From Naegleria gruberi (taxonomy: Eukaryota), in the NCBI GenBank assembly GCA_000004985.1, contig GG738857.1: 64,000 nucleotides of DNA. The stretch is one strand, 5' to 3'. Positions 2,450 to 40,758 of this stretch are shown here, one piece after another (the stretch's first letter is position 1; every line of letters begins with the position of its first letter). A program made the translations under genes and the position numbers. Under the pieces are notes generated by a model that was given only the letters and a program-made list of their open reading frames with translations, did not search any database and was not told where the DNA came from.

Positions 2450-2664
2450 TTTTTTGATTGATGACTGCCTTCCAAACAGTTAGCGGAAACGAAAGATAAT
2501 TGCCTAATGTAACGGTCGCTGATTGCTAGCCCTATTGTGAAAGACAATAAACTGAGTTTATTGTGAAATGTAATTAATGTTCATGTCCTCAACTGGGACA
2601 TAATTAGAGAACTCGAATTGTTAATGAATTGTTAATACTGTATAAATTAATTTTTTGGTGTTAT

Positions 2665-3519: not shown

Positions 3520-4524
3520 ATTTCCTCAAGGTAATAATGATGATGATAATATCAATTCCAATGTATCTTTTCTCCACACAACACTGTCTTTTCAACAACC
3601 AACAGACACAAAACAATAACAAACTCTCCCAACCGACAAAATCAATTCTCGTTGTTGGCCAAACTAGAATGTTGTTGTGGTCGACCAATAATTTTTTTAA
3701 GAGAATTTTATTGCAGTGATGCTTAATATCAAAGGAGAAAGCGCGAAAAAAATACTGCACAACAAAGGCTTCATACAGTATGAAAGAGTTTTCCTTCTCG
3801 GAAGGGCGGTGTTTAGATGTTGATGGTTGAGAAACAAAATTGAGATTGGCATGACGAGGACGAGTATGAATGAGGGGTAGACTTTTGGGGAGTTTGTGCT
3901 ACATCCAACACAATTTAATGATGATTGCTTGTTTTAGATTGGTGAACATTCACGAATAGCCTTAATAATGGCTTCTATTAGGATTGGACATAGGAAATGA
4001 TCCAGATGAGGAACTCTTATGAAACTTTTCATAAGTACAGTCTGTATCTCGAAAGAAGCAAAATGATCCAACATTCCTTGTCAGATTTATTAAATGTGAA
4101 TTAACTTCTGACAAGTCATTGTCATAATATCATCATTCAACAACTGGTGGTACCAATACAGGATCAACTTCAAGCTACAATGATGAAATTATTGAAATGT
4201 TTGTTAAACACTTATGAAAATGATAGAAACACCAATAATAGCTAAAACGAGAAAGTGAACAAGTTAATAATGATTCTCGAAAATTGGTCAACCACAATAT
4301 TTCTTAACAAAGAAAATTTTAGATAATTGTTGTAAAAGTTTAATGTAATAAAAAGGATATTGGTCGGATTATGTTAATTGTTCAGTCATTCTCCGCCTTA
4401 AACTCCTTTTGGTCTCGATATCATTTTTGGCATGTCCATTACAATTTGCATAAGATGAGGGAACTGAATTGGCCAAGAATTGGTCAAAAAAACAAACAAA
4501 AAACCAAGCTTCTAAGAATCGGCA

Positions 4525-10347: not shown

Positions 10348-13300
10348 ATGTCAACATCGCTATTGCCAAGTGCCTCCTTTGACCTATTCGATTCTGAATT
10401 ACATAATGTAATTGATGAAGAAAGGGATCGGAAACATATTTTGCAGCAATGTCTACATAAATTAAATGAAAATAATTATGTGACGAAAGCTTTTGCAAAA
10501 TATTCGAATATATTCGAAACTATTGACAAAGGACCTGAAGTTTCTGTTTGTTTATTATCAGAACCTGGATTTGGTAAAACAAGCACATTGAATATGATAC
10601 TATCTGGAAATGACAATTCTCCAATGAAGGCATCCGATAGATTAGGTTCAGGTGAAACTTTAGTCTGTACACAAATTAAATATTCGAAAGACATTCGAGT
10701 TACAAAAGTTTATTGTACAGCTGAAAAGTATGAAGAAAGAATTATGAAATTAATGAAAACAAAAGATTCAGAAGATGAACAAACATCACCAACGCCACTC
10801 ACAGATGGTTTAAGTTTAGTTTCGTCTTCAAGTTTCGAATTTCAAGACGATGATGATGATGAAGAAACTGATTGCGAAGATTCAGCATCAGATGAAGCAA
10901 ATTCACTTTTACTTCCAGAGAAATTAAATGTAGAAACTTCAAGTGTAAGATTAAGTGAAGATCATTTCGTATTTCTTAATGGAAAGGCAGATAGAAATGA
11001 ATTAGAAGAAACATTTACGTTTCAATCTGTTCATGATATTCATAACTATTTTGAAAAGGAAAGAAAAAGAGATGAATGCAATAGAGATGACATTTTAATG
11101 GTTGACAAATATATTTTATACTATCCGTGTGAATTACTTAAAAGTGAATATGGAGAAGTGATATTATGGGATATTCCTGGTTATGGTGAACAAAATTATG
11201 GTGATATTCAAGCTATGCTTGTTGAAGAAGTTGTTTCTAATTGTAATGTCATCTTAATGGCATTGACAGGTAACAGAAATATCCTATCTTTAAATTGTTC
11301 ATCTAATTTATGGAAATATAAGGCATTTGAAAAAAGAAAAGATAATCCACCTACTATTGTCTTAACTTCAAGATGTCCAATAGAAAATTCAAATCATTAT
11401 TCAGAATTAATCAAATGTCATAATTCCTATATTAGGGAATTTAAAGAAAATTTAAGTGATTTTTTCAATGTTGATTTTGAATCTAATCCAAAACCTAAAA
11501 AGAAAGAATTGAAAGAAGAAAATGAAGACGAACCTAAAATAATTGACTTTTTTGGAAAGTATGATTTTGTTGTAACAGTTTCAAATTATGCAACAAATAT
11601 TACAATACCACATTTAACGGATAAAAATAATTGGACTATATTTAAGGATGAATTTTCAAAAATAATTGAAATGAGAAAGAGAATTGAAACTGATTATTCA
11701 ATTTTTAAGGGATTGAGATATGCTTTACAAATTGTAACACTTTACAGAACTCAATTTCCTGTCAATTTTCAAAAATTATGTAAAACAGAGACAGATAAAA
11801 TTGCAGATGAAACTTTAAAAACTTTACTACAATATATTGAAACTTTGGAATCAAATATTCAAAGAGCAATTTCAAGAGGTGAAAAATTAGAGAAGAAAAT
11901 TGAAAATTCTTTCAGTTTTGGAAATGAAAATTCATTGACTGATAAAATTCAGAGAAGATTATTCGAATCACATACAAGAGATGTCATGATTGCTTACTAT
12001 AGTGAAAGAATGAAAAAAATCAGTACAAGAATTGAAATGTTCAGAATTCAATTACATTTTCTATTGGAAACTAAAATTTTAGCAGCACAAAGTCATGAAA
12101 AATGTTTTGATTTTACAAATTTTAAAAACATGTTGTCAGATCATATTGATGAGATATTCGATTCTTTAAAAGCAATTATTCCAAACGAAATGACAGATGA
12201 TTCTAGAATGAAACTTGATTCGTATCATGAATCTTTTAAATCAATGAAAGGAATTTCAGAACAATCTAAAATTTTATTGAAAACTTTAACTAAATCAGGA
12301 TTCAAAAAAATAACCAAAACAGATGATAAGGAACTTTCATTATATGAAAAAGCAGAGAGAGTGAAAAGAGATTTTAAAAAGAAGAACTTCAAGTCCTATG
12401 AAGATGAAATCAAAATTCCAAGTCTTTCTAATGCCTATATGAATCCTTCTCGTAGAACAGGTAATATTCTAATTCCACTAAAAGAATACGAAACTATTAA
12501 GGAATTGAAAGAAAATTTCATTTTACCATCAGTAGGTGAGAAATTTGAAGAAAATATTGGAAAAATAGAAAAACAATCAAAAAGTGAATTGGAATTGGTA
12601 TATCGTTCAGATGAAATTAGTGGAAATATCATTTCCTTACAAATCGACAAATCACAGAGAAGAATTACAGTTTCGTATAATGAAAGTTTGCAAAAATCAA
12701 TTCAAAGTTTTAAAAAACTATTGACCACTGATTCACTCATTGGAACTAAGGGTGGAAACAAGAGTCATAGCCGACAACGAATTGCTCCAATTTTCATTAC
12801 TGCAGTTCCAGAATATTTCAATGATTTCACTCCAAACTTTTTAGAGAGACATGTTCATGATTGTTGTGTTAAATCAGATGTCAATCATATCATTTTCATT
12901 ATGATTGAGTCAATTTATTTGGAAAAAGCTCAATCATTCCTTAATCAGAATTTAAGTTTGTTGAATAATGAATATTCAAAGAAAAAATTGAATTATGTAT
13001 TTATCAGTATTGATACTGAACTTCCTGTAAATATTGGAAAGAAGAAGAAACTTTGCATGTTGGTGGCAGAACATTTCGAATTGGAAATTTATCATGTCAT
13101 GGAAGATAACATACTTCACGTTGAGGAATATATCAAACCAATCTTTTTCAGACATAACAATGCATTGGCAAGATATCTCATCTATGCAGAGGCCATTCTC
13201 TATTTTGAACTTTATTCAAGCATGGATTACACTCAGAAAAAAGGAATTATTAAGGAATTGCATGATTTTTTCTTGGATGAACCTTTAACGAGACGATACT

Positions 13301-13953
13301 ATTTGGAAAACAAGATTTCAGATTCAGATCCACTCAGGAAATTTAACACAGATGAGAAGATTAGAGAGAAGTATATTCACGATCCGAGACAATTATTATT
13401 TGCTTTTAATTATTTGAAACCTAAACTAAATGAAGATGGATTACAAATCGTTCACCAATATGAGGTGAAATTTAATGAATTCTTTAATAGGAGAGATCAT
13501 GTAGGTCATATTTCATTGTGGAATACTCAAAGTTCTCAATCAAAATCACTGAGCTCATTTATTGACAGCACTCAAAAAACAACTCATTTTGTTTCACCTA
13601 TGAGAGGAAATATCAGTACATTTTATGGACCGAATACGAAAGGAATTCATCCAGTTTCGGATAATGTTCTATTTGATGGGATGGCAGAAACATCACCATC
13701 TCCATTGACTCCTACATCAAAAAGAAGAACTAAGTTCGATATGTTGGAATCTTTTTTATGTGGAAATAGTTTCTCTGATGATTACTTTATTAGGCAAATG
13801 TTATTGCATGGAATTGGTGGATTTCAAATTTATGCTTTTAGATATCTTGCTGGAAACAGAGCTAGAATTAAGGATCGCAAAAAGAATTCGAAACGAAAGG
13901 ATATGGAATCGATCAAAAATGTTTCCCAACAGAAAAAGAAGAAGAATAAATGA
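10348..13953 (+). CDS. Paralog B (intact, 1201 aa, no introns). It has a septin/IRG-like GTPase-type N-domain with S.PGFGKTST in place of G..G.GKS and a WDIPGYG DxxG motif, then an acidic D/E-rich insert, a long helical region, a conserved C-terminal domain of unknown function shared with paralog A, and a basic C-terminal tail.
   Basis: Single 3606-nt ORF starting at an ATG. G1-like LLSEPGFGKTSTLNMILSG and G3-like VILWDIPGYGEQNYGD resemble septin (GESGLGKST / DTPGFGD) and IRG (GETGSGKSS / WDLPGIG) motifs. Blocks in the C-terminal ~420 aa are conserved with paralog A: LIGTKGGNKSHSRQRIAPIFIT, ERHVHDCC, GKKKKLCML.AEHFELEIYHVMEDN, RHNNALARYLI.AEAI.YFEL, HVGH.SLWN, RGNISTFYGPN..GIHPVSD.VLFDG, YFIRQMLL.GIGGFQIYAF.Y. 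It is transcribed divergently from paralog A, with only 211 bp between the two start codons. Confidence 0.75.
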   Translation: MSTSLLPSASFDLFDSELHNVIDEERDRKHILQQCLHKLNENNYVTKAFAKYSNIFETIDKGPEVSVCLLSEPGFGKTSTLNMILSGNDNSPMKASDRLGSGETLVCTQIKYSKDIRVTKVYCTAEKYEERIMKLMKTKDSEDEQTSPTPLTDGLSLVSSSSFEFQDDDDDEETDCEDSASDEANSLLLPEKLNVETSSVRLSEDHFVFLNGKADRNELEETFTFQSVHDIHNYFEKERKRDECNRDDILMVDKYILYYPCELLKSEYGEVILWDIPGYGEQNYGDIQAMLVEEVVSNCNVILMALTGNRNILSLNCSSNLWKYKAFEKRKDNPPTIVLTSRCPIENSNHYSELIKCHNSYIREFKENLSDFFNVDFESNPKPKKKELKEENEDEPKIIDFFGKYDFVVTVSNYATNITIPHLTDKNNWTIFKDEFSKIIEMRKRIETDYSIFKGLRYALQIVTLYRTQFPVNFQKLCKTETDKIADETLKTLLQYIETLESNIQRAISRGEKLEKKIENSFSFGNENSLTDKIQRRLFESHTRDVMIAYYSERMKKISTRIEMFRIQLHFLLETKILAAQSHEKCFDFTNFKNMLSDHIDEIFDSLKAIIPNEMTDDSRMKLDSYHESFKSMKGISEQSKILLKTLTKSGFKKITKTDDKELSLYEKAERVKRDFKKKNFKSYEDEIKIPSLSNAYMNPSRRTGNILIPLKEYETIKELKENFILPSVGEKFEENIGKIEKQSKSELELVYRSDEISGNIISLQIDKSQRRITVSYNESLQKSIQSFKKLLTTDSLIGTKGGNKSHSRQRIAPIFITAVPEYFNDFTPNFLERHVHDCCVKSDVNHIIFIMIESIYLEKAQSFLNQNLSLLNNEYSKKKLNYVFISIDTELPVNIGKKKKLCMLVAEHFELEIYHVMEDNILHVEEYIKPIFFRHNNALARYLIYAEAILYFELYSSMDYTQKKGIIKELHDFFLDEPLTRRYYLENKISDSDPLRKFNTDEKIREKYIHDPRQLLFAFNYLKPKLNEDGLQIVHQYEVKFNEFFNRRDHVGHISLWNTQSSQSKSLSSFIDSTQKTTHFVSPMRGNISTFYGPNTKGIHPVSDNVLFDGMAETSPSPLTPTSKRRTKFDMLESFLCGNSFSDDYFIRQMLLHGIGGFQIYAFRYLAGNRARIKDRKKNSKRKDMESIKNVSQQKKKKNK

Positions 13954-14346: not shown

Positions 14347-16488
14347 TTACAAGTCTTCATCACTCTCATCAAGTGTATATTCTTGGATGCCTTGAGGTTT
14401 GTTTTGACTTGGTTCTGTTTGTTGCTCTCTTTCTAAAAAGTGTGGTTCATCTTCTAATTCTTCATCTTCCCCCCCATTGATTGGATCATGATGAGAAATA
14501 ATTGATCTATCTCCATACAAAGCCAAATATTCCTTTCTGTGTCTTCCAAGGAAACAAAAAACAAGCATTAATAAACCAATAATTGTTACCAAGGAAATAA
14601 CACCATATGTAATCATGATTGGATAAAGTCCACGATCTGAAACTAAGGCATTTTCATAGTATTCGCAAATACTTCCACTATATCTATCTTCACATTTACA
14701 CTATTATTATGAATGAATAAATATGAGTTTCAAATCAACTTACTTCATTGTAATCTACGCATGCACCTTTACCTCCACAAACCTTGCCAGTTGTTGAAAT
14801 TGAAGGAACTCCAAAGCAATATGTATGTTCGCATTCATTTCCAAAATATTCAGCCTTACATTTACAAGTATTTTCTGACAAACATTCTCCCCTCTTTACA
14901 CCTCCACAAACACTTGATGAATTAGCTGGTAATCCATAACATTTGTGAACTATTCCGTGATTATGATAAATTGGTGAAATTAATTTTAGCCACTTACTCT
15001 TTAGGTCACTGCAATACTTTCCTTCAAATTTGGCAGTGCATTTCTCACATTTTTCTCCATCAAAATTACCTTTACATTTGCAAATATTCTCTGCAACACA
15101 CTCTCCATTACCACTACACACATCAGAGTCTGTGTTTTTAAAACCATGGCAACTGACAGGAGGCTTGAGTGCAAATTTCAGTAACATGGGATTACTGCTG
15201 TCGGCATGTACCAAAATTGCAAACTCAAAATCTTTATACTTCAATGGTAAGAGCATATAATCCCAATTGCCTTTATCGTCATTATCAGTGTCCTCAATTA
15301 GGGTAAAAACTTTTTCTTTTCCATCCATTCTTTTGACAGAACAGATACCGCCGAGAGTTGTACAAGTTTTGAATACCAAATTACCATTATTGAAAGTTAA
15401 AATATTTTGAGCATCTCCTCCAGTGTAGATAGTATCAACTTCATTAAAAGTATCTCTAACAACTGCAAATGAGATAATATTTCCATCCTTGATATAAAAT
15501 CCTAATCCATCATTAATAAACAAGCTCATTACTGCGTCATTGATTTTTTGGAGCTTGTCATTCAAATGTATGTAGAGAGACTTTTTGTTTCCAATAATAT
15601 TTTTTCCCATAACAGTAGTTTGGTAAGATGGTTTGCCATCGAATAAATTTGAGTACTTTCCATCATCTGAGGTGACAATAGTTTTGAGGCCATCAAAATA
15701 AAACGTAAGGGATGTTCCTTGAACCATTGAATCGGATTGATAAGTAAGGTTTTTTACCCAAGTAATATTCAATGCTAATGGATCCAATTTTCCAATAGAT
15801 AAGACCTCTCCATTTTGGTAAAGGACGTTGACATCTCCTTCATAATCTTTGGAAAATGTAAGAGGGAAATATACTTTGTCTCCTTTCCTTTCAAAATTTT
15901 CTTTAACATTGTAACTTTTGTCGACACTTAACAATCCTTCACTGTTTGCTCCAATGAATAAATTTTTTGTAAGAATTGATGAAAGGGTGTCTACTTCCTT
16001 GATTGATTTAATTGCATTTGCGTTAAAGTTAGCTTTGTATAATCCTTGCTTCCTGTCAGTACCGATGGCACCATCAAAAAGAAGATCATTTTCATTCAAG
16101 AAAATGAGTTGATTCATTTCAGATATTTCTGTGTCACTGATAATATTAGCAGAGTCGTCATTTTTCAAATAAACGAGTCTAACACCCTTATATCCATTAG
16201 TATTCTTTAACAACCATGATTAGTGAATATATTCATTTCAAAACATACTTGATTTGGAGCGTAGTGTGCTTTAAAGTAAACAGTGCTTCCATCGGGTTTA
16301 ACAATATAGTTTTTAAAATCATCTTGATCATTGTCTTCTTGTAAAACTGTAAAATTATCAGTATCTTTTCTTTCTTGTCTGTAAACGTTGTCTGTTGGTG
16401 TTGAAATTGAATAGACGAAACTAATTCCGGCCATCAAATTGACAACCAAAAAAACGGCAATCAACAAACTTGCCAGATTTTTAAACAT
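14347..16488 (-). CDS. Type I membrane protein with a signal peptide, several EGF-like cysteine-rich repeats, one transmembrane helix and an acidic cytoplasmic tail. Exons (minus strand) 16488-16251, 16206-14744, 14700-14347. Introns 44 and 43 bp.
   Basis: Exon 1 MFKNLASLLIAVFLVVNLMAG... is a signal peptide. It joins ...YAPNQ|NTNGYKGVRL... through GTATGT..TTAAAG (16207-16250). The large exon ends with EGF-like modules (CSGNGECVAENICKCKGNFDGEKCEKC, CGGVKRGECLSENTCKCKAEYFGNECE, CGGKGACVDYNE). The last exon follows GTAAGT..AATAG (14701-14743) and encodes CKCEDRYSGSICEYYENALVSDRGLYPIMITYGVISLVTIIGLLMLVFCFLGRHRKEY...DESDEDL*. Confidence 0.7.
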
Positions 16489-21856: not shown

Positions 21857-22841
21857 ATGAAAAGTAAAAGGCAACAAGAATATTCTCTGAAGGGAATTCG
21901 AATAATTGTAGTTTTGATGATGGTGATGATAGGTTTCTTCGGAATAATATCTTGTAAGGATGATTTTCGGGAAACAAGTAATGAATTGGCTTTGGAGTTC
22001 TTTCCTCTTGATAAATTGATTATGAAGAGTATTGTATTGGATGAATACAATAATGAACTTGTTTATAATATGGTCAATTTGACGAATAATGATTCCATGA
22101 CAAATGGAACAGATAGTAACAATTCGAGTGGGATTGAAGATAATCTTTTTTGGGTTATTGTCAAGTCAATTTATTTCAATGCATTTGGAAGTGGAGTGTT
22201 TGCTGGTTTGGTGACAATTGCTATCACTGTCATTATTGAAAAGTTTGGACCTCAGGTTGGAGGTGTTATTGGTACGTTGTAAACCAATTAGTTCAATTTT
22301 TTTAAATCAACTTTTAAATCAATAATAGGCACCTTACCAAGTACAATTATTCCAGCAACAATTGGGTTCTCAATTGAGGCAGATAAGAATTACGGAACAG
22401 ATCCAGAATTGAGGAAACACATGCTCATCCAGCAATTCTTTGTGATACCTTTGGCTGTTTTCTGCAATTGTCTCTTTTTGGTTATTTGGAAATATTCGCC
22501 ACACATTATTGATAGGATTAAACTTTTAATTGATAGGAAGAGAGGGAAGAGCAAGCAAATCAATATTGTTGCTTCTCATGAGGCAAGCGTTCAAGAAATG
22601 AATGAGATTCCATTTGAAGAAAACCATGATATACACGATGCAGATGAGGGACATCATCGTCCTTCTGTTGAGCTCCTCACTGCTGCACAAGGCACTGATG
22701 AACATAGTACCACTGAGCTCCAAACAGAAAGCCAACCAAGCAGAAAGTACCTTGTTGGAAAAATGTTTATTGTAATGACATTGTCATTGGTGGTATGGTT
22801 TACATTGGCTATTGTGATTGTGACAGTTACTAAGGTCGAAA
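21857..22841 (+). CDS. Multi-pass membrane protein. Exons 21857-22271 and 22329-22841 (intron 22272-22328, 57 bp, GTACGT..AATAG). The 3' end is lost in the assembly gap.
   Basis: ...FGPQVGGVIG|TLPSTIIPATIGFSIEADKNYGTDPELRKHMLIQQFFVIPLAVFCNCLFLVIWKY... is continuous after splicing and has several hydrophobic helices. The pre-gap part of the ORF-track 1523-aa ORF (22409 onward) belongs to this gene, not to the PPR gene. Confidence 0.5.
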
Positions 22842-23128
22842 NNNNNNNNNNNNNNNNNNNNNNNNNNNNNNNNNNNNNNNNNNNNNNNNNNNNNNNNNNN
22901 NNNNNNNNNNNNNNNNNNNNNNNNNNNNNNNNNNNNNNNNNNNNNNNNNNNNNNNNNNNNNNNNNNNNNNNNNNNNNNNNNNNNNNNNNNNNNNNNNNNN
23001 NNNNNNNNNNNNNNNNNNNNNNNNNNNNNNNNNNNNNNNNNNNNNNNNNNNNNNNNNNNNNNNNNNNNNNNNNNNNNNNNNNNNNNNNNNNNNNNNNNNN
23101 NNNNNNNNNNNNNNNNNNNNNNNNNNNN
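22842..23128. other. Assembly gap (287 N).
   Basis: N run. The length is not a multiple of 3, so frame continuity across it in the ORF track is an artefact. The gap probably arises from the near-identical PPR repeat units. Confidence 0.99.
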
Positions 23129-26100
23129 AACATGATCAAACAGTCAAACATTTCCAGCGTAACACTTGATGGCATACTAATCAAGTTTTATACAAAGTGT
23201 GGACACGAGGAAATGGCAATAGAGCTCTATAGAGATATCATTTCACAAAATAAGCCAATAGATGTCATAACTTTTACTTGTGTCATTCAAGCATTTGCTC
23301 AACAAAAACAAATAGAACAAGCAATAGGCGCTTTGGAGGAAATGAAAAAGAGAAATATTAACCCAAATAGTGTAACATTTACTATATTAATTAGGTTGTG
23401 TGCAGAAAATCAATATTACAAAGAAGGTGTGAAATTACATGAAATGATCAAAATATCGAAAATTTCGAGTTTAGAATTGAGTAACTCATTAATGAATTTT
23501 TACACAAAATGTGGTAAACCTGATGTTGCCCTTCAACTATTTGAACAACTCAAAGTTGGCAAAATGAAATTGAATGTAGCTTCTTGGTCATGTGCAATTC
23601 AGGCCCTTGGAGAGAAAAAAGACATCAGAGGAGCAATTGGTTTATTGGAAGAAATGCAAGCCAATAATATCAAAGCAGATTCTATTCTATTTACCATATT
23701 ATTATCTCTATGTGCAGACAATCAACTTTATGAAGAAGGAGTGAAATTACATGAAATTATCAACGTATTGAAAATTTCTAGTTTAGGATTGTCGAACACA
23801 TTAATGAATTTTTATAACAAATGTGATCAAACCAGTATATCACTTGAAATATTTGAAGAACTTAAAAAAGAAAACAAGACAAATGTTGTATCATGGAATT
23901 GTGCAATTCAAGCTCTTGCTAAACAGAAACATTTCAAAAAAGCTATTGATTTATTGGAAGAAATGGAATCAAACAAAGTCAAACCAGACACTATTACATT
24001 CACAATACTTATTAGTTTCTGCGCGGAAAATCAGCTCTATGAGGAAGGTGTAAAATTGCATGAGTTCATACAAAGGTTAAATGTATCGAGTTTGGAATTG
24101 AGCAATACATTGATGACCTTTTACACCAAATGTCACAAACCTGAAGTTTCACTCGCGATGTTTGAACATCTTACAAAAGAAAACAAAGCTGATAACGTAT
24201 CTTGGAATTGTGTAATTCAAGCACTTATCCAAAAAGAAGATATAACAAAGGTAACCGAGCTACTGGATAGTATGGCAAAAACCAATATTATGGTTGATGT
24301 TTCCATGTTAGTAGCTGTAGTGAATAAGTGCACAGAACGAAAATTGTTAAAGGAGGGAGTTTTGTTTCACAAGCAGATGAGAATACACAAAATTGAAAAT
24401 GTAGAATTGAGTAATTCCTTAATGAATTTTTACACTAAGTCTGGCCAACCTAATTTATCACTTGAAATATTTGAAGAACTTAAAAAAGAAAACAAGACGA
24501 ATGTTATATCATGGAATTGTGCAATCCAAGCTCTTGGACAAAAAAAAGACATCAACAAAGCTATTGATTTGTTAAAGGATATGCAAATCAATTCTGTTAA
24601 ACCAGACTTCGTAACATTTACTACATTAGTTAGTTTATGCGCAAAGAATCAGCTCTATAGCGAAGGAGTAACATTACATACAATTATCAAAAGCCTTGGT
24701 ATGGAAAATATAGAATTGTCAAACACATTAATGAATTTTTACACAAAATGTGGTAAACCTGATGTTGCCCTTCAACTATTTGAACAGCTCAAAATTGGCA
24801 AAATGAAATTGAATGTAGCTTCTTGGTCATGTGCAATTCAGGCCCTTGGAGAGAAAAAAGATATCAGAGGAGCAATTGGTTTATTGGAGGAAATGCAAGC
24901 CAATAATATCAAAGCAGATTCTATTTTATTTACCATATTATTATCTCTATGTGCAGACAATCAACTTTATGAAGAAGGAGTGAAATTACATGAAATAATC
25001 AAAGTATTGAAAATTTCTAGTTTGGAATTGTCACACACATTAATGAATTTTTACACAAAATGTGGCCACACTAACGTTGCGCTTCAGCTATTTGAGGACT
25101 TGAAAAAAGAAAATAATACCAATGCTATTTCTTGGAACAGTGCTATTCAAGCCTTAGTGCTAGCTAAAGACACCCAGAAAGCAATAGACCTTCTTGCAGA
25201 AATGCAATTGCTCAATGTTAAACCAGATACTATTACGTTCACTATATTAATTGGTCTGTGTGCAGAAAATCAATATTACAAAGAAGGAGTGAAATTACAT
25301 GAAATGATCAAAGTATTGAACATTTCAAGTTTAGAATTGAGTAATTCATTAATGAATTTTTACACAAAATGTGGTCAACCTGATGTTGCACTTCAACTAT
25401 TTGAACAGCTTAAAATTGACAAGATGAAAATGAATGTAGTTTCTTGGTCATGTGCAATTCAGGCCCTTGGAGAGAAAAAAGACATCAGAGGAGCAATTGG
25501 TTTATTGGAAGAAATGCAAGCCAATAATATCAAAGCAGATACTATTTTATTTACTATTTTACTAACTTTATGTGCAGACAATCAACTTTATGAAGAAGGA
25601 GTGAAATTACATGAAATAATCAAAGTATTGAAAATTTCAAGTTTGGAATTGTCAAATACATTAATGAATTTTTACACAAAATGTGGACAAACCAGTATAT
25701 CACTTGAAATATTTGAAGAACTTAAAAAAGAAAACAAGACAAATGTTGTATCATGGAATAGTGCAATCCAAGCTCTGCGATCTAGGAAAGATATTACAAG
25801 AGCCTTTGAATTGCTAGAGGAAATGAAAAAACTCAACATTGAACCAGATGAAATAACATATGTTAGCCTTCTTACTCTATGTGCAGACAGTGTTGCCATT
25901 AAGCAGGGAGAGGAGGTGGTGCAGCAGTTCAAAACAAAACATATAGCAAAAAGTGTCTTTTGGATTGGTGCAACTATAAGCTTTCATGCAAAAGTTGGAA
26001 GATTGGAAAGAGCAGAATCAGTATTCAATGAATATTTATCTAACAACCCACCATTTGATCCAATCTTGACAAGTGTTATGATAGATGCTTATGCCAAACA

Positions 26101-26980
26101 TGGAAAAGGAAAAGAGGCTGTTTATTTGTATCAACAAATAATTGATAGAAACCAACTCCCAAGTGCAGAGGCTGTTACAAGTGTTTTAACCGCTTGTAGT
26201 CATGCAGGGTTAGTTGATGAGGCAAGAAGAATTTACAAGTCAATTGAAAATACACAAGTATGTACACCAAGTCACAAAGCTTGTATGGTAGATGTTTTGG
26301 CCAGAAGTGGATATTTGGAGGAGGCTGAACAATTTATTGGTTCATCAAGAGATGTAGTTAGTTGGGTAACACTACTGGGAGCATGCAGAATTCATACGAA
26401 TGTTGAAATAGCTGAAAGAACGTTTGATATTCTCTTAGAAATAGACAATGAACAAGCTTCCCACTATGTACAAATGTCACATATTTACAATCAAATGGGA
26501 CAAATTGACAAGGCAAACGAAGTAAGGGAATTAATGAAACGTAATAATGCAACGAAAATTCCTGGAATTACCACTATTGAGGTTGATGGTGAGACCCATA
26601 ATTTTGTGTCAGATGATTCATACCACCCTAGAATGCAAGAAATTAACCAAGAGTTAGAAAAGCTGAATAAGGAAATGTTAGATGCTGGTTATGCTCCAGA
26701 TACTAGATGGGTAACAAGGTTAGATGTTGATCCAAATGATGAAAAAAAGAAGAAAGAATTATTATGTAGACACTCCGAAAGAATAGCAATGGCATTTGCT
26801 TTTATTTCATTACCAAAAGATGAACCAATTGTGATGAGAAAGAATTTGAGAGTGTGTGGCGATTGCCATACAGCTACCAAATTCATTTCCAAAATAAGAA
26901 AAAGGGAAATAATTGTGAGAGATGCCAGTAGGCATCATCATTTTAAAGATGGCAAATGCTCATGTGGTGACTTCTTCTAA
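23129..26980 (+). CDS. DYW-type PLS-class pentatricopeptide repeat protein, a plant-type organellar C-to-U RNA editing factor family. It is 5' partial because it starts inside the gap. It has at least 8 near-identical ~105-aa PLS triplet units, then E motifs and a DYW cytidine-deaminase-like domain.
   Basis: Repeating units ..LSNSLMNFYTKCGKPDVALQLFEQLK.GKMKLNVASWSCAIQALGEKKDIRGAIGLLEEMQANNIKAD.ILFTILL.LCADNQLYEEGVKLHEII.. recur with a period of about 600-1260 nt. The C-terminus KKELLCRHSERIAMAFAFISLPKDEPIVMRKNLRVCGDCHTATKFISKIRKREIIVRDASRHHHFKDGKCSCGDFF* carries the DYW-domain HSE and CxDCH zinc and deaminase signatures. It ends DFF in the position of the canonical DYW. Confidence 0.85.
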   Translation, partial: NMIKQSNISSVTLDGILIKFYTKCGHEEMAIELYRDIISQNKPIDVITFTCVIQAFAQQKQIEQAIGALEEMKKRNINPNSVTFTILIRLCAENQYYKEGVKLHEMIKISKISSLELSNSLMNFYTKCGKPDVALQLFEQLKVGKMKLNVASWSCAIQALGEKKDIRGAIGLLEEMQANNIKADSILFTILLSLCADNQLYEEGVKLHEIINVLKISSLGLSNTLMNFYNKCDQTSISLEIFEELKKENKTNVVSWNCAIQALAKQKHFKKAIDLLEEMESNKVKPDTITFTILISFCAENQLYEEGVKLHEFIQRLNVSSLELSNTLMTFYTKCHKPEVSLAMFEHLTKENKADNVSWNCVIQALIQKEDITKVTELLDSMAKTNIMVDVSMLVAVVNKCTERKLLKEGVLFHKQMRIHKIENVELSNSLMNFYTKSGQPNLSLEIFEELKKENKTNVISWNCAIQALGQKKDINKAIDLLKDMQINSVKPDFVTFTTLVSLCAKNQLYSEGVTLHTIIKSLGMENIELSNTLMNFYTKCGKPDVALQLFEQLKIGKMKLNVASWSCAIQALGEKKDIRGAIGLLEEMQANNIKADSILFTILLSLCADNQLYEEGVKLHEIIKVLKISSLELSHTLMNFYTKCGHTNVALQLFEDLKKENNTNAISWNSAIQALVLAKDTQKAIDLLAEMQLLNVKPDTITFTILIGLCAENQYYKEGVKLHEMIKVLNISSLELSNSLMNFYTKCGQPDVALQLFEQLKIDKMKMNVVSWSCAIQALGEKKDIRGAIGLLEEMQANNIKADTILFTILLTLCADNQLYEEGVKLHEIIKVLKISSLELSNTLMNFYTKCGQTSISLEIFEELKKENKTNVVSWNSAIQALRSRKDITRAFELLEEMKKLNIEPDEITYVSLLTLCADSVAIKQGEEVVQQFKTKHIAKSVFWIGATISFHAKVGRLERAESVFNEYLSNNPPFDPILTSVMIDAYAKHGKGKEAVYLYQQIIDRNQLPSAEAVTSVLTACSHAGLVDEARRIYKSIENTQVCTPSHKACMVDVLARSGYLEEAEQFIGSSRDVVSWVTLLGACRIHTNVEIAERTFDILLEIDNEQASHYVQMSHIYNQMGQIDKANEVRELMKRNNATKIPGITTIEVDGETHNFVSDDSYHPRMQEINQELEKLNKEMLDAGYAPDTRWVTRLDVDPNDEKKKKELLCRHSERIAMAFAFISLPKDEPIVMRKNLRVCGDCHTATKFISKIRKREIIVRDASRHHHFKDGKCSCGDFF

Positions 26981-27929: not shown

Positions 27930-29474
27930 TTGCAACACATACGGAAGAAGAGTAGAGATAATCAAAAGTGGGAAGAAAATCGTAAAATATTGAGAAATTC
28001 GTTCATTCCGATCGAGTTTAGAAATGATCGTGATTATGTAAAGAGGAATGTCGAAATGTACAGTAGAACCTTTGAATGGGCTTCTGAGGAATTGAGATCC
28101 GATAAGAAATTAATCATGGAAGCATTGGTAAAGATGAGTTCCTTTCCGGCGTTGGAATTCATCTCTGATTCATTGAAGAAGGATCAGGAATTTATTAGTA
28201 AGATGATTGAACAAAATCCAATCTTGATGGATGGAGCCAGTGAATATAACATTAATTTTATTAAGGAGGCAATTAGAAAGGGGTTGAAGAAATTTCCTCC
28301 AAAGAAAGTAGCAGTTGTGGATAGGAAAGAAATGTTGGAAAAGTTCAAAAAGAAGGAGATTGAATTTTGGGATTTACCTGAAAAGTTTAAAAAGGATGAT
28401 GAATTTTGCTTGATTGCAATTCAGAGGAGTTTGAATATAATGCAGGAAATTGGGCCAAATCTGAGTAGAGAAATGATTATTAAGGCAGTGAGGGAAGCAT
28501 CGTTCCTTGCATTCTATCATGCTGATGAAAATTTAAAGAAGGATAAGTTGCTTATTGGAAGATTGATTAAAATAGATCCTCATGTATTATTATTTGCTGA
28601 TAAGGAGGTAAGAAAAGATAGAACAATTATATCAGATGCTGTTAAATTGGATGTTGAAACATTGAATTATGCCACAAATGATATTTTGAAAGATGTCCAA
28701 TTTGTACAGAAAATCAAGTCAACTGGAGGTTCAAAAGACTCTAAAAATCACAAAGAAGTCATTTTGTTAGCACTCTCTTATGCTCCAGAAATTGCTGCCA
28801 TCATACCCCTTTCTTTGAAGAAGAATAAGGAATTCATGCTTCAAGCAATCAATGCTGGAGGTTCAGAGGTGCTACATCATCTTCACGAATCATTGAAGGA
28901 TGATAAGGAATTCATACTAAAAGCAATCAAATCAATTGAATATTGTTCAATGTTGGCAGAATGCCTCCCAGAAAGTTTACTCTCAGATAAGGAAATTGTT
29001 TTGGCAGTTGTAGAGAAGGATCCAGGAAGTTTCAATCACTTTAAAAACTTGTCAGACATTCCATTCACTAGAGAGATGATTCTAAAAGTTGTGAAAGAAA
29101 GTGCAAGTGCATACAAGGGAATTCCAGAAGAATTCAAAAAAGATAAGGAAATTGCTTTAGAAACAATGAAGGGAGGCCTAGCCTACCTTATCAGTAAAGT
29201 ACCTGATGAATTAAAGAAAGATAGAGAATTTATTTTGAAATGTTCACAAGAGAATCCTGAAGTGGTTAGATATTGCATTGATGATTTCAGATTCGATTCA
29301 GAATTTTGTTTGCAAGCTATACGATTGAATGGATGTGTTCTTGGTAAGGTCCTGATAGACAAGACAAGAGAAATGGAAATTGAGGCTGTAAAACAGAATG
29401 GGTTCTTTCTTCCATCTAGTGAAATTCTGGGCGAATTGCTAAAGATTAGAATGGAACATTTCAACAGTATTTAA
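27930..29474 (+). CDS. DUF4116-type repeat protein (tandem ~35-aa repeats). The start is uncertain; the first in-frame ATG is at 28056.
   Basis: Repeated motifs ..LK.DKEF.L.A..(N/S)...L..(A/V).. occur more than 10 times, for example LKKDQEFISKMIEQNP, FKKDDEFCLIAIQRS, LKKDKLLIGRLIKIDP, LKKNKEFMLQAINAG, LKDDKEFILKAIKS, FKKDKEIALETMKG, LKKDREFILKCSQENP, FRFDSEFCLQAIRLNG, and end with REMEIEAVKQNGFFLPSS. This is typical of the DUF4116 repeat family. The ORF-track start is a TTG. Confidence 0.6.
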   Translation: MQHIRKKSRDNQKWEENRKILRNSFIPIEFRNDRDYVKRNVEMYSRTFEWASEELRSDKKLIMEALVKMSSFPALEFISDSLKKDQEFISKMIEQNPILMDGASEYNINFIKEAIRKGLKKFPPKKVAVVDRKEMLEKFKKKEIEFWDLPEKFKKDDEFCLIAIQRSLNIMQEIGPNLSREMIIKAVREASFLAFYHADENLKKDKLLIGRLIKIDPHVLLFADKEVRKDRTIISDAVKLDVETLNYATNDILKDVQFVQKIKSTGGSKDSKNHKEVILLALSYAPEIAAIIPLSLKKNKEFMLQAINAGGSEVLHHLHESLKDDKEFILKAIKSIEYCSMLAECLPESLLSDKEIVLAVVEKDPGSFNHFKNLSDIPFTREMILKVVKESASAYKGIPEEFKKDKEIALETMKGGLAYLISKVPDELKKDREFILKCSQENPEVVRYCIDDFRFDSEFCLQAIRLNGCVLGKVLIDKTREMEIEAVKQNGFFLPSSEILGELLKIRMEHFNSI

Positions 29475-38278: not shown

Positions 38279-40534
38279 TTATTCAAGATGAGCAATGGAA
38301 TCTGAAATAATCTTTCTTGTCTTTTCCAATTCTTCATCACTCACCTTACAGTTAGTCAACTTGGATCTCTGCAAGAGAATATTTACCAACTTGTTACTCT
38401 CTTTATCATATTCGAACAAGTAAAAATACTTGTTAAAATCTAGCAATGTAATCTGGTGGCAGATATATGGAATGTTTGCTTCCTTAGAGTAGGGTGAGTT
38501 AATCTGACTTGCCAAATATCTCAATAACTGCTGCTTTGGATTGTTCAGTCTTTCTTCGCTAATTGGAACACCATTTCTTTCATCTTCATCTTGATAAATG
38601 GCATCCAACATTGATACATAGTACTCATAAATTGTTCCTTCCTTTCTTCCATAGCAAACTTGTAATGGAATTATATTTTCACTTGGAGGGGTGTATTCTG
38701 GCAATGTAGCATCTCCCTCATCATTCCACATATGTCCAATAGATATTTCATTTGTTTGGGTCTTCAGTCTTTGCCAAACTTCAAAATCATCAAATGGATA
38801 TGCAAAGCACTTTAAAAACTTGTCCTTCAAATCACAAACAAATCCATTGGCCTGCAAATGGAAGTAATTCACACGATCAATCTTTTTCAATTCCTCTCTG
38901 TTCAGATAGAGAACATTTACAAAGGACTGTCTCTCTGAGTCAACACATGAAATGCTCTCCACAAAAATCTTCTTGTACTTTTCCAAAATTTCCAACTTTT
39001 CTGCATAGCTCACATTCTCGTCTCTGTACAAGTGAGCCTTCAATTCTGGATAAAATTCACTAATTTCACTCTTGGAATATAATTCACAACCATATAACAC
39101 TAGGGCAAGTGTTTGACCCAATCTGAAAGCCATAAATTTTAAATCATCTGGATGCAGTTTGCTGGTGAGCTTTGTAAAGTCCATCTCAGCCAAGGATAAT
39201 CGCTTCAATTTGAATGAAGGAACATTGAGTGCCTTGATGCAAAAGCTTCTCACCTCCTTACATCTTCTTACCTTACCAATTAAATTGACAAGTGTCATGC
39301 AAACCTTTAGTGGAACCAATCTTCTGACACGTCCTCTGATTTGACATGGATACTTTTGTTCATGGAGAGGATAAGTTGTGAAAAGAGCATTATTGGCCTC
39401 ATCAACCAATCCCTTAAACACATCAACCAAATATCCCTTATCAGTGTCACTTTTCAATTCGCTATAATCTTCTGATCGAATCAAAACTAAATTTCTATCC
39501 TCAGTTCCAGATGCTCTAATAAACAAATTACAATCATTTTCAGGAGGTAACTTATCCTTGAAAATATAAATGATGTCAACATCAGAGGAATCCTTTGAGC
39601 CATGATGGTAAAATGGCACCTCAACAGCTGTTGGTTGAGCAGAAGAGTTGATAACTTCCTGAGCTGTACTTGTTCCTTCAAACTTGGTAAGAAAATCATT
39701 CAATGAAAATTCCAAATTCCAGCTCTTCTTCCAATCCTTCCATCCCTTCATGACAGAGAAGGTTCTATCTGTATTTCTTGAACTCTCAACTAGTTTGTTC
39801 CATTCCCCAGTCTTGAATAAATCCTGATTGTCAGTTGTCTTGATAATTATAATTTCCTGATTCTTATCTGTAGCATTCAATTCTGAAACAAGTGGATAAC
39901 CCAAAATCAGCAAGTCAGCACAATTCAGAACTGAACTCGTCTCATTGGTTAAATCTTCCTCCAGAAACATAATCTTATTCAACCAATTCTTCTTATGACC
40001 CAATAATTTACAAACCCAATTTATCTTTGTGGTCATTATTCTAATACATTCATCCCTATCAATACTGAGCGAGTACTTTCCATCATCATTTCCACTAACC
40101 TCATCATTAAAGAATGAAATCTGTGGAATTCTCTTAAAATACACTGAACTATTCACAGGATTCAAAGTTGTGAATAATTTAAAATCAATGGTCTTGTACT
40201 TTTCCTCATACTGATAAACTTCCAACAAAATCCCCTTTGTGTTATCCACTGTCAAATCCTCCTTCGAAAAGAAGTCCCGATCCATCAAAATTTGACTCAA
40301 TTTATACTGATCACCCTTTTCCAAATGAAAACCAGCAGGCTTCCTCATCATTTCAAGTGGTGATGGAATTTTCTTTCCGAATTTTTCGCAATATCTTTCA
40401 TAAAGCACCTGATCCAGCCTATATAAACAATTATCCATGTTGATAAATATTTTTCTTCTTTTTGTATTCTTTGTTGTGGAGCCTGATGAGCTGCACGAGT
40501 GGGTGTGATTGCTGTCAGAGGCCATGTTGAGCAT
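38279..40534 (-). CDS. Large hypothetical protein (~750 aa) of unrecognised family. The probable start is an ATG at 40534 or 40525.
   Basis: The 817-aa ORF begins with TTG. The in-frame ATGs give MLNMASDSNHTHSCSSSG.... It contains Cys/His-rich stretches (..KYPCQIRGRVRRLVPLKVCMTLVNLIGKVRRCKEVRSFCIKAL..). Confidence 0.45.
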   Translation of the reverse strand: MLNMASDSNHTHSCSSSGSTTKNTKRRKIFINMDNCLYRLDQVLYERYCEKFGKKIPSPLEMMRKPAGFHLEKGDQYKLSQILMDRDFFSKEDLTVDNTKGILLEVYQYEEKYKTIDFKLFTTLNPVNSSVYFKRIPQISFFNDEVSGNDDGKYSLSIDRDECIRIMTTKINWVCKLLGHKKNWLNKIMFLEEDLTNETSSVLNCADLLILGYPLVSELNATDKNQEIIIIKTTDNQDLFKTGEWNKLVESSRNTDRTFSVMKGWKDWKKSWNLEFSLNDFLTKFEGTSTAQEVINSSAQPTAVEVPFYHHGSKDSSDVDIIYIFKDKLPPENDCNLFIRASGTEDRNLVLIRSEDYSELKSDTDKGYLVDVFKGLVDEANNALFTTYPLHEQKYPCQIRGRVRRLVPLKVCMTLVNLIGKVRRCKEVRSFCIKALNVPSFKLKRLSLAEMDFTKLTSKLHPDDLKFMAFRLGQTLALVLYGCELYSKSEISEFYPELKAHLYRDENVSYAEKLEILEKYKKIFVESISCVDSERQSFVNVLYLNREELKKIDRVNYFHLQANGFVCDLKDKFLKCFAYPFDDFEVWQRLKTQTNEISIGHMWNDEGDATLPEYTPPSENIIPLQVCYGRKEGTIYEYYVSMLDAIYQDEDERNGVPISEERLNNPKQQLLRYLASQINSPYSKEANIPYICHQITLLDFNKYFYLFEYDKESNKLVNILLQRSKLTNCKVSDEELEKTRKIISDSIAHLE

Positions 40535-40758
40535 TTTTTTTTGTAAGGAAATGGTAAAGTTGACAAACGAATGTAATAGATTCGAACTTAACGAGAGATT
40601 GGAAATTGCACTTGATAAAGATAGTTTCAATTGATAATAGCATATCACTAATATAATGAGTGCAACATCAAATAAAAAATGAACTACTGTGGGGAAAAAG
40701 CAAATAATTTGGCGCCAAAAACAATCGACCAAAAATTGGAATTTTTCAAAAACAAAAA

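What the first reader, a model, noticed from the sequence alone, without database searches (positions are those of the whole stretch)
23129..26980. Plant-type DYW PLS-PPR editing-factor-like gene with near-identical intragenic repeat units and a DFF terminus
DYW-type PPR proteins are the specificity and deaminase factors of organellar C-to-U RNA editing in land plants. Outside plants they occur only sporadically, in a few protists such as heteroloboseans, Physarum and Acanthamoeba, where they are thought to be horizontally acquired. This gene has at least 8 PLS triplets, E motifs and a DYW domain with intact HSE and C..CH zinc/deaminase motifs (CRHSERIAMAF...VCGDCHTATKF). It terminates in GDFF rather than DYW. 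Several ~105-aa units are almost identical at the nucleotide level; for example the unit starting near 23460 recurs near 24720 and 25320. This implies recent unequal crossing-over or gene conversion that could rapidly retarget RNA-binding specificity. It probably also caused the 287-bp gap that removed the 5' end.
Basis: partly seen in the sequence, partly recalled or inferred. Interest (0 to 1): 0.6.

Follow-up and report, generated by a model that had tools for sequence, protein, structure and literature searches.

The report
Known Naegleria DYW-type PPR gene
This is a real but already described gene: one of the plant-like DYW-type PPR (RNA-editing-factor-like) genes of the amoeba Naegleria gruberi, cut at its 5' end by an assembly gap and unusual mainly because several of its 104-residue repeat units are 93-96% identical.

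Summary
Window 23129-26980 (+) is one uninterrupted 1283-codon ORF running out of a 287-N gap. It holds 31 PPR motifs in P-L-S order, then E1, E2 and a complete DYW deaminase domain ending in GDFF. Its last 799 residues are 100% identical to Naegleria gruberi NAEGRDRAFT_32040 (XP_002679496.1), so the organism and gene are known. DYW-type PPR proteins of N. gruberi were published in 2010, and two mitochondrial C-to-U editing sites in 2011. All catalytic and zinc ligands are present, and an AlphaFold model superposes on a solved PPR-DYW structure (TM 0.89). Three PLS units (23477-, 24716-, 25337-) are 93-96% identical in DNA, against 52-73% for the other units. The identity tracts have sharp edges and are mosaic, which points to gene conversion. 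Synonymous divergence is 0.10-0.20 and pN/pS about 0.2, so the copies are real, not brand new, and under selection. Two more annotated N. gruberi PPR proteins, from adjacent genes, share the trait; 54 other PLS proteins do not. The only additions here are a truncated public gene model (484 upstream codons unannotated) and the numbers on repeat homogenisation. The target RNA and the N-terminus could not be tested. Verdict: already known, low interest.

The parts
22842..23128 (.). Assembly gap (287 N) that removes the 5' end of the gene. The same-strand upstream membrane-protein ORF (22409-22841) also runs into it.
23129..26980 (+). 5'-truncated coding sequence of the N. gruberi DYW-type PPR gene NAEGRDRAFT_32040. 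It has 1283 codons plus a TAA stop and needs no intron.
23129..23158 (+). Tail of an L motif (NMIKQSNISS, homologous to the ...EMIKISKISS ends of the later L motifs). This shows that the repeat array continues into the gap.
23159..26353 (+). Array of 31 PPR motifs in the order S-(P-L-S)x9-P2-L2-S2. P motifs are 35 aa, L 34 aa and S 34-35 aa, giving a triplet period of 103-104 aa.
23477..23788 (+). Unit U2, a near-identical PLS unit: 95.8% nt identity to U6 and 92.9% to U8.
24716..25027 (+). Unit U6, a near-identical PLS unit.
25337..25648 (+). Unit U8, a near-identical PLS unit: 93.3% nt identity to U6.
23375..23920 (+). Copied block L-S-P-L-S (546 nt), 91.8% identical to 25235-25780. Identity falls to 44-51% in both flanks.
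25235..25780 (+). Second copy of the L-S-P-L-S block.
24581..24583 (+). Internal ATG (Met485 of the ORF) used as the start of the public 799-aa gene model. The 484 codons upstream of it are PPR-coding but unannotated.
26354..26560 (+). E1 (26354-26455) and E2 (26456-26560) motifs.
26561..26977 (+). DYW cytidine-deaminase domain (139 aa). It contains a PG-box variant PGITTIEVDGETHNF, HSE at 26771-26779, the conserved Lys at 26840-26842, CGDCH at 26855-26869, HHF at 26936-26944, CSC at 26957-26965 and the terminal DFF at 26969-26977.

Best explanation
The region is the nuclear gene NAEGRDRAFT_32040 of Naegleria gruberi. It is one member of that organism's published, lineage-specifically expanded family of plant-type DYW PPR proteins. 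Its 5' end is lost in a scaffold gap, and the public model starts too late, at an internal Met. Inferred mechanism, by homology: the protein is imported into the mitochondrion. Its 31-motif PLS superhelix binds a single-stranded RNA, one nucleotide per motif, read by residue 5 and the last residue of each motif. The E1/E2 motifs and the C-terminal DYW domain place a cytidine about 4 nt downstream of the last S motif in a zinc-dependent deaminase site (His/Cys/Cys plus a catalytic Glu) and convert it to uridine. The array evolved by intragenic patch copying, mostly gene conversion. That copying placed a five-motif L-S-P-L-S block twice and an S-P-L core a third time. The copies have since diverged about 10-20% at synonymous sites under purifying selection. 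What is shown: gene identity, domain architecture, catalytic residues, fold, and the repeat structure and its selection signature. What is inferred: mitochondrial location, RNA target and editing activity.
For: Identity: the C-terminal 799 aa match XP_002679496.1 / EFC46752.1 / D2V8U1 (NAEGRDRAFT_32040) at 799/799.
Context: the neighbours are ordinary eukaryotic genes (DUF4116, WD40, F-box, actin-like, PPPDE/PUL, kinase, PARG). Gene GC is 33.0% against 33.5% for the window.
Architecture: Pfam finds PPR, E_motif and DYW_deaminase, and the motif register is worked out.
Deaminase: the region aligns full-length to the solved synthetic PPR-DYW 9kfx (E 2.3e-65) and to OTP86-DYW 7o4e (E 9.2e-33). The residues equivalent to H892/E894/K915/C920/C923 (Zn1 and catalysis) and H924/H947/C954/C956 (Zn2) are all conserved (residue roles from PMC7611903; invariant columns).
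Fold: the AlphaFold model has pLDDT 91.6. It superposes on 9kfx_A with TMq 0.89 and rmsd 2.2 A, and on 7o4e/7o4f/7w86 with TMt 0.76-0.85.
Literature: N. gruberi was the first non-plant found with DYW-type PPR proteins (10-11 genes), and it has two verified mitochondrial C-to-U sites (PMC4202320; PMC5421314; PMC4758236).
Repeats. pN/pS is 0.18-0.26 with pS 0.10-0.20.
Paralogue: NAEGRDRAFT_45423 begins with a basic stretch that has no acidic residue until about position 35, which looks like a mitochondrial presequence.
Against: The N-terminus lies in the gap, so targeting cannot be predicted. Only two editing sites are known for 10-11 DYW proteins (PMC4202320), so most family members, possibly this one, may have no assigned editing site. 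The PG box deviates from the plant consensus (TT instead of SW) and the terminus is DFF rather than DYW. I could not open the 2010 or 2011 primary papers, so I cannot confirm that this exact accession is on their list.
Confidence: 0.8

Rival explanations
1. The gene is a real, expressed DYW-type PPR gene, but it is not a site-specific editing factor. It could act in RNA stabilisation, cleavage or splicing, or bind a periodic, low-complexity RNA. In that case the deaminase domain would be unused or would act in trans.
For: There are ten to eleven DYW proteins but only two known editing sites in N. gruberi, and the authors themselves suggest other roles (PMC4202320). The three homogenised triplets carry the same code residues (S: N/N, P: S/D, L: T/S). 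The predicted target therefore has a periodic Y-G-N pattern, which is odd for a unique site in a 78% A+T mitochondrial genome (AT content). The paralogue NAEGRDRAFT_45423/45424 is even more homogenised.
Against: Every catalytic and zinc-binding residue, the gating region and the fold are retained. The repeats are under purifying selection. In plants such intact DYW domains are the editing enzyme (PMC7611903).
Confidence: 0.15
2. The near-identical units are an assembly artefact, either a mis-joined or a duplicated repeat, produced by the same problem that left the adjacent gap.
For: A gap directly abuts the repeat array. The paralogous repeat-rich gene is split into two adjacent models in the same assembly.
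Against: The copies differ at 13-22 of 312 positions, and those differences are enriched for synonymous changes (pN/pS ~0.2). Artefactual duplication would not give that pattern. The reading frame is intact across every junction. The 245 nt next to the gap are not part of a high-identity tract.
Confidence: 0.03
3. The gene is a decaying pseudogene or a plant-DNA contaminant.
For: The 5' end is missing and the terminus is DFF. The E2-DYW region is closer to plant-like and metagenome sequences (52-59%) than to the N. gruberi paralogues (44%).
Against: There are 1283 open codons in an AT-rich genome (P ~2e-43) and pN/pS is ~0.2. GC content is identical to the flanks and the neighbours are typical Naegleria genes, including a DUF4116-repeat gene. 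The 103-104-aa triplet period is shared with the N. gruberi paralogues, whereas plant proteins in the sample have 101-102 aa. Best whole-protein similarity is to N. gruberi paralogues (41%) against ~30% for plants.
Confidence: 0.02

Closest known systems
DYW-type PPR protein family of Naegleria gruberi (Knoop & Rudinger 2010, FEBS Lett 584:4287; mitochondrial editing shown by Rudinger et al. 2011, RNA 17:2058; both cited in PMC4202320)
   Same: Same organism. The same deposited protein accounts for the C-terminal 799 aa (NAEGRDRAFT_32040). The PLS-E-DYW architecture is the same, and the family is described as a lineage-specific expansion (PMC3239186).
   Different: Nothing differs in kind. The ORF is at least 484 codons longer than the public model and is still 5'-incomplete. 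I could not open the 2010 paper to confirm that this accession is on its list, or whether it mentions the near-identical units.
Land-plant PLS-class DYW editing factors (e.g. Arabidopsis OTP86, PDB 7o4e/7o4f; DYW1, 7w86; synthetic consensus PPR-DYW, 9kfx)
   Same: P-L-S motif order, E1/E2 motifs, and a DYW deaminase with the HxE...CxxCH site, the structural second-zinc site (H, H, CxC), the gating region and the fold. E2-DYW identity to 9kfx is 54% in the structural superposition (Foldseek).
   Different: The S motifs are 34-35 aa instead of 31, so the triplet period is 103-104 aa against 101-102. Intragenic triplets reach up to 96% nt identity, whereas 54 comparison proteins reach at most 64 identical residues per 100-aa window. 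The PG box has TT in place of SW. The terminus is DFF. The host is a heterolobosean amoeba with only two known editing sites.
N. gruberi paralogues NAEGRDRAFT_45423 + 45424 (adjacent models, probably one gene) and the 536-aa paralogue P0179
   Same: The 104-aa PLS period is shared. 45423/45424 contain at least 9 triplets that are about 90% or more identical in protein, so they show the same homogenisation phenomenon. The C-termini are GGYW and NNYW variants.
   Different: Overall identity to this gene is only 41%, and 44% in the E2-DYW region. The units cluster by gene, so homogenisation happened independently within each gene.
Environmental heterolobosean-like PPR-DYW gene on ENA contig ERZ27315067:k141_310422 (locus L001)
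   Same: It is the best non-N. gruberi match to the N-terminal PLS units (37% identity, E 4.5e-82). It has Naegleria-like LS(N/T)TIMNFY.KCG S motifs, and an E/DYW ORF follows the PPR ORF.
   Different: By eye on its protein sequence (not measured), it has only about 3-4 triplets and they are not near-identical. The called DYW fragment lacks the HxE histidine (reads LYPEK). The source organism is unknown.

Membership tests
PLS-class DYW-type PPR protein (plant-type organellar C-to-U editing factor) | Tandem PPR motifs alternating as P, L and S variants | tested here: met
   Pfam PPR_2 at 3e-140 and PPR at 1.9e-113. The manual register gives 31 motifs in S-(P-L-S)x9-P2-L2-S2 order. The S variant is 34-35 aa rather than the plant 31 aa.
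PLS-class DYW-type PPR protein (plant-type organellar C-to-U editing factor) | E1/E2 (E) motifs between the PPR array and the DYW domain | tested here: met
   Pfam E_motif scores 55.3 bits against a cut-off of 27.3. The region aligns without gaps to the E2 region of 9kfx. The old 'E+' model scores 20.4, below its cut-off of 24.
PLS-class DYW-type PPR protein (plant-type organellar C-to-U editing factor) | DYW deaminase domain with the catalytic HxE...CxxC zinc site and the conserved Lys | tested here: met
   PF14432 scores 124 bits against a cut-off of 24. HSE, KNLRVCGDCH align to H892/E894/K915/C920/C923 of OTP86. These columns are invariant or nearly invariant in 32 homologues.
PLS-class DYW-type PPR protein (plant-type organellar C-to-U editing factor) | Second, structural zinc site (two His plus the C-terminal CxC) | tested here: met
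   CH...HHF...CSC are present and aligned to H924, H947, C954 and C956.
PLS-class DYW-type PPR protein (plant-type organellar C-to-U editing factor) | Cytidine-deaminase fold with the DYW-specific gating insertion | tested here: met
   The AlphaFold model has pLDDT 91.6. Foldseek gives 9kfx_A at E 3e-22 with TMq 0.89 and rmsd 2.2 A over 198 columns, and 7o4e/7o4f/7w86 with TMt 0.76-0.85. This is a predicted, not a solved, structure.
PLS-class DYW-type PPR protein (plant-type organellar C-to-U editing factor) | PG box (PGxSWIEVxGxxHxF) at the start of the DYW domain | tested here: inconclusive
   The sequence is PGITTIEVDGETHNF. The P, G, IEV, G and HxF positions are kept, but SW is replaced by TT.
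PLS-class DYW-type PPR protein (plant-type organellar C-to-U editing factor) | C-terminal Asp-Tyr-Trp tripeptide | tested here: not met
   The terminus is DFF. Among 130 homologues with a complete end, 98 have DYW, 11 DFW, 5 DYF and 2 DFF. OTP86, the factor whose DYW domain was crystallised and used in editing assays, ends in DSW. The literal tripeptide is therefore not strictly required for family membership.
PLS-class DYW-type PPR protein (plant-type organellar C-to-U editing factor) | Organellar (mitochondrial) targeting | not testable with these tools
   The N-terminus lies in the gap. The only support is a presequence-like N-terminus on the paralogue NAEGRDRAFT_45423.
PLS-class DYW-type PPR protein (plant-type organellar C-to-U editing factor) | Sequence-specific C-to-U editing of a cognate organellar transcript | not testable with these tools
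   At organism level, two mitochondrial C-to-U sites are reported (PMC4202320).
Published N. gruberi DYW-PPR gene set | Encoded in the N. gruberi nuclear genome and present in the public gene catalogue with a DYW domain | tested here: met
   There is a 100% match to NAEGRDRAFT_32040 / XP_002679496.1. Whether this accession is explicitly listed in the 2010 paper could not be checked.

The most novel reading that the evidence does not exclude
Long DYW-PPR genes of N. gruberi homogenise their PLS arrays by ongoing intragenic gene conversion, a mode of PPR evolution not seen in 54 plant, rotifer and Physarum comparators. Each homogenised unit carries the same specificity residues (roughly Y-G-N). 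Such arrays would then read a periodic or degenerate RNA rather than a unique editing site. If so, most of the 10-11 Naegleria DYW proteins would not be classical one-site editing factors. The published N. gruberi gene models would also systematically under-represent these genes, being truncated or split at the repeats.
Probability: 0.2. Interest if true: 0.4.

Novelty: already known. Interest (0 to 1): 0.2.

Why it matters
The presence of plant-type DYW PPR editing factors in a heterolobosean amoeba is a well-known curiosity. It led to the discovery of C-to-U editing in Naegleria mitochondria and feeds the debate on horizontal transfer of the editing machinery. Re-finding one family member adds nothing to that story. 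Two practical points follow from this work. The public model of NAEGRDRAFT_32040 is at least 484 codons too short and still lacks its N-terminus. The gene (and the adjacent pair NAEGRDRAFT_45423/45424, probably one gene) also contains PLS units that are 93-96% identical in DNA and under purifying selection. That would matter to anyone applying the PPR code to assign Naegleria factors to the two known editing sites, or studying how PPR arrays expand.

Tried and rejected
1. Genomic context and independent assemblies: look-ups for P0001 and P0002 found nothing on record.
2. Primary papers: Knoop & Rudinger 2010, Rudinger et al. 2011 (PMC3222119) and Schallenberg-Rudinger et al. 2013 (PMC3858438) are not held. 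Searching the library and two supplements for NAEGRDRAFT_32040, XP_002679496 or EFC46752 found no mention. Membership in the published list is therefore inferred.
3. Recovering the missing N-terminus: a search with the first 330 aa found no 100% match. The best hits were a 37% environmental relative and another N. gruberi paralogue.
4. The homologue search with the 198-aa C-terminus returned only short proteins. It did not return P0001 or the Naegleria paralogues, so it could not be used to enumerate the family.
5. Fusion idea: I asked whether the same-strand membrane-protein ORFs upstream of the gap (21857-22282, 22409-22841) are the N-terminus of this gene, as in the rotifer DYW-PPR P0051, which has an N-terminal multi-TM region. 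BLASTP shows no similarity (best E 1.4 and 2.7) and Pfam finds nothing. The idea was rejected for lack of evidence. The in-frame read-through of the gap is meaningless because the gap length is only an estimate.
6. Matching the PPR-code string to the mitochondrial genome was not possible, because N. gruberi mtDNA (NC_002573) is in none of the searchable collections.
7. Assembly artefact, pseudogene and contamination were all considered and rejected (see the rival explanations).


Full report
**What is there.**
The window is AT-rich (about 33.5% GC) eukaryotic nuclear DNA. A run of exactly 287 N occupies 22842-23128. A single ORF starts at the first base after it and runs on the + strand for 1283 codons to a TAA at 26978-26980. 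At this base composition an open stretch of that length has a chance probability of about 2e-43. Pfam finds PPR_2 (3e-140), PPR (1.9e-113), E_motif (7.9e-15; 55 bits against a cut-off of 27) and DYW_deaminase (2e-36; 124 bits against a cut-off of 24).

**Whose gene it is.**
The C-terminal 799 residues are 799/799 identical to 'predicted protein [Naegleria gruberi]', accessions XP_002679496.1 / EFC46752.1 / UniProt D2V8U1, locus NAEGRDRAFT_32040. That public model starts at an internal Met, Met485 of the ORF at nt 24581. The 484 codons upstream are continuous PPR-coding sequence but match no protein in the database at high identity, so they are unannotated.

The ORF begins in the middle of a repeat. 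Its first residues, NMIKQSNISS, correspond to the '...EMIKISKISS' end of the later L motifs. The array, and the true N-terminus, therefore lie in the gap.

The neighbouring ORFs are ordinary eukaryotic genes: a DUF4116-repeat protein, WD40, F-box, actin-like, PPPDE/PUL, a protein kinase and PARG. Gene GC (33.0%) equals that of the window. Contamination or very recent transfer is therefore excluded.

**Anatomy.**
Using the helix-A register, I count 31 PPR motifs in the order S-(P-L-S)x9-P2-L2-S2, followed by:
- E1 at 26354-26455
- E2 at 26456-26560
- a 139-aa DYW domain at 26561-26977

That makes ten complete PLS triplets, plus an S motif and an L-motif tail from an eleventh. P motifs are 35 aa, L motifs 34 aa and S motifs 34-35 aa. 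The triplet period is thus 103-104 aa (TRF period 309 nt). The plant proteins in the comparison set have a period of 101-102 aa. By sequence the 'S' motif is clearly S-like (NxLMNFYTKCG), but it has a longer C-terminal loop.

**The deaminase domain.**
The last 198 residues align end to end with a solved synthetic PPR-DYW protein (9kfx, E 2.3e-65). They also align with the Arabidopsis OTP86 DYW domain (7o4e, E 9.2e-33) and DYW1 (7w86, E 1.8e-32). The residues that the OTP86 structure paper defines are all present:
- catalytic zinc ligands H892, C920, C923
- catalytic Glu E894
- DYW-specific Lys K915
- structural zinc ligands H924, H947, C954, C956

These positions are invariant or nearly invariant in an alignment of 32 homologues. 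An AlphaFold model built from that alignment has mean pLDDT 91.6. It superposes on 9kfx_A with TM 0.89 and rmsd 2.2 A over all 198 columns, and on the three DYW crystal structures with target-normalised TM 0.76-0.85.

There are two deviations. The PG box reads PGITTIEV instead of PGxSWIEV. The terminus is DFF. Among 130 homologues with a complete C-terminus, 98 end in DYW, 11 in DFW, 5 in DYF and 2 in DFF (this protein and one other). OTP86, the factor whose DYW domain was crystallised and used in editing assays, ends in DSW. DFF is therefore a rare but conservative aromatic variant, not a sign of inactivation.

**The repeats.**
Nine in-register units start at 23165, 23477, 23789, 24098, 24407, 24716, 25028, 25337 and 25649. 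Units 2, 6 and 8 are 92.9-95.8% identical in DNA and 91-96% in protein. Every other pair is 52-73% identical in DNA.

The high-identity tracts are:

| Tract | Partner | Length | Identity |
|---|---|---|---|
| 23468-23814 | 24707-25053 | 347 nt | 95.1% |
| 24720-25073 | 25341-25694 | 354 nt | 92.9% |
| 23375-23920 | 25235-25780 | 546 nt | 91.8% |

Identity drops to 44-66% within about 45 nt on either side of each tract.

Motif by motif the pattern is mosaic:
- The S motif of unit 3 is 93% identical to that of unit 9, but their P and L motifs are only 69% and 46% identical.
- The L motif of unit 1 is 88% identical to that of unit 7, but their S and P motifs are only 56% and 60% identical.
- The P motifs of units 2, 6 and 8 are 97-99% identical.

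So a five-motif block (L-S-P-L-S), out of phase with the unit, exists twice, six units apart. Its S-P-L core exists a third time. Short, sharp-edged patches between non-adjacent repeats fit gene conversion better than simple unequal crossing-over, which would duplicate contiguous whole units. This is an inference.

The copies are not brand new. Synonymous divergence is 0.10-0.20 and non-synonymous 0.026-0.038, giving pN/pS of 0.18-0.26. This argues for purifying selection on a functional gene. It also argues against an assembly artefact, which would give identical copies or random differences. None of the differences among the three copies touches position 5 or the last position of a motif. 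The copies therefore specify the same nucleotides, and there is no evidence of 'retargeting' in this gene.

**Is the repeat homogeneity unusual?**
As a control I measured the largest number of identical residues between any two 100-aa windows of the same protein:

| Protein | Max identical residues per 100-aa window |
|---|---|
| This ORF | 97 |
| NAEGRDRAFT_45423 | 98 |
| NAEGRDRAFT_45424 | 92 |
| 54 other PLS/DYW-type proteins from the homology search | 24-64, mostly 30-45 |

The 54 comparators are land plants, Ginkgo, a rotifer and Physarum. The two paralogous models are adjacent genes that look like one gene split in two. Together they contain at least nine nearly identical 104-aa triplets. 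Units cluster by gene, so homogenisation acts within each gene. An environmental Naegleria-like relative (locus L001) does not look homogenised by eye. The trait is thus seen in the three repeat-rich N. gruberi protein models examined (this ORF and the adjacent pair 45423/45424, probably two genes in all). I could not determine whether the 2010 paper already noted it.

**Predicted RNA-recognition code.**
Reading residue 5 and the last residue of each motif gives this string:

GD TN TS NN SD TS NN ND TS ND ND VN NN ND TN NN SD TS HN ND TS NN SD TS NN ND VS GD SS TT AD (E1 VQ, E2 VI).

Under the established PPR code (ND = U>C, NN/NS = C>U, T/S+D = G, T/S+N = A; from established knowledge), this reads roughly as G-A-a-Y-G-a-Y-U-a-U-U-n-Y-U-A-Y-G-a-n-U-a-Y-G-a-Y-U-n-g-a-a-n. 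The edited C is expected four nucleotides downstream of S2.

**Comparison with what is known.**
[quoted passage not shown] Two C-to-U sites were then verified in its mitochondrial transcripts (Rudinger et al. 2011). Both are as cited in PMC4202320, PMC5421314 and PMC4758236. Iyer et al. describe the family as a lineage-specific expansion of the DYW deaminase clade in Naegleria that retains the second metal site (PMC3239186). Fu et al. discuss a horizontal origin from early land plants. They also note that DYW proteins outnumber editing sites, and suggest additional roles.

One further detail. This gene's E2-DYW region is 52-59% identical to the best plant-like or metagenomic sequences, but only about 44% identical to the N. 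gruberi paralogues P0002 and P0179. Its PLS array, in contrast, is closest to the N. gruberi paralogues: 41% over the whole protein against about 30% for plants.

**The gap.**
The assembled 245 nt next to the gap are not part of any high-identity tract, so this cannot be shown. It stays possible if the missing part contains further homogenised units.

A same-strand ORF encoding transmembrane segments (22409-22841, preceded by 21857-22282) also runs into the gap from the other side. It has no Pfam match and no similarity to the N-terminal membrane region of the rotifer DYW-PPR protein. I treat it as a separate gene. The gap would have to hold the end of that gene, an intergenic spacer, and the start of this one, including a presequence and the rest of a triplet. 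The nominal 287 bp is therefore probably an underestimate (inference).

**Verdict.**
However, both the gene and the phenomenon are already in the literature and the databases. The residual value is an improved gene extent and a quantified description of intragenic repeat homogenisation under purifying selection. Novelty: already known. Interest: 0.2.

Noticed in passing
window 23129-24580: These 484 codons are continuous PPR-coding ORF lying upstream of the start of the public gene model NAEGRDRAFT_32040 (Met at 24581). No database protein matches this half at high identity, so the model is truncated.
   Followed up: yes
proteins P0003 + P0002 (NAEGRDRAFT_45423 / 45424, adjacent on a 1.0-Mb N. 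gruberi scaffold): P0003 has a presequence-like N-terminus and ends inside a PLS unit. P0002 starts inside a PLS unit and ends in a DYW domain (GGYW). Together they hold at least 9 almost identical 104-aa triplets. They are probably one gene split into two models.
   Followed up: partly
window 26384-26977 versus P0002 / P0179: The E2-DYW region of this gene is 52-59% identical to plant-like or metagenome sequences but only about 44% identical to the N. gruberi paralogues. The N. gruberi DYW family is therefore internally very divergent, and this member stays close to the plant consensus.
   Followed up: partly
L001 1312-3820 (ENA ERZ27315067:k141_310422): An environmental 7.2-kb contig carries a Naegleria-like PPR-E-DYW gene broken into three frames (1312-1764, 1731-3290, 3326-3820). 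Its DYW part reads LYPEKMAMAF where HxE is expected. It may contain short introns or be degenerate. An EF-hand gene and a DUF7869 gene flank it.
   Followed up: no
window 21857-22282 and 22409-22841 (+): Two same-strand ORFs encode several hydrophobic, transmembrane-like segments and have no Pfam match. The second ORF runs open into the N gap. This is probably an unrelated membrane-protein gene whose 3' end is also lost in the gap.
   Followed up: partly
window 27930-29474 (+): A 514-aa ORF made of 13 DUF4116 repeats (Pfam 2e-68) lies directly downstream of the PPR gene.
   Followed up: no
window 1993-2042: A second assembly gap, 50 N long.
   Followed up: no
window 6146-8995 (-), 10348-13953 (+), 14735-16213 (-), 38279-40732 (-): Four long ORFs (491-1201 aa) have no Pfam match at E <= 1e-5.
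   Followed up: no
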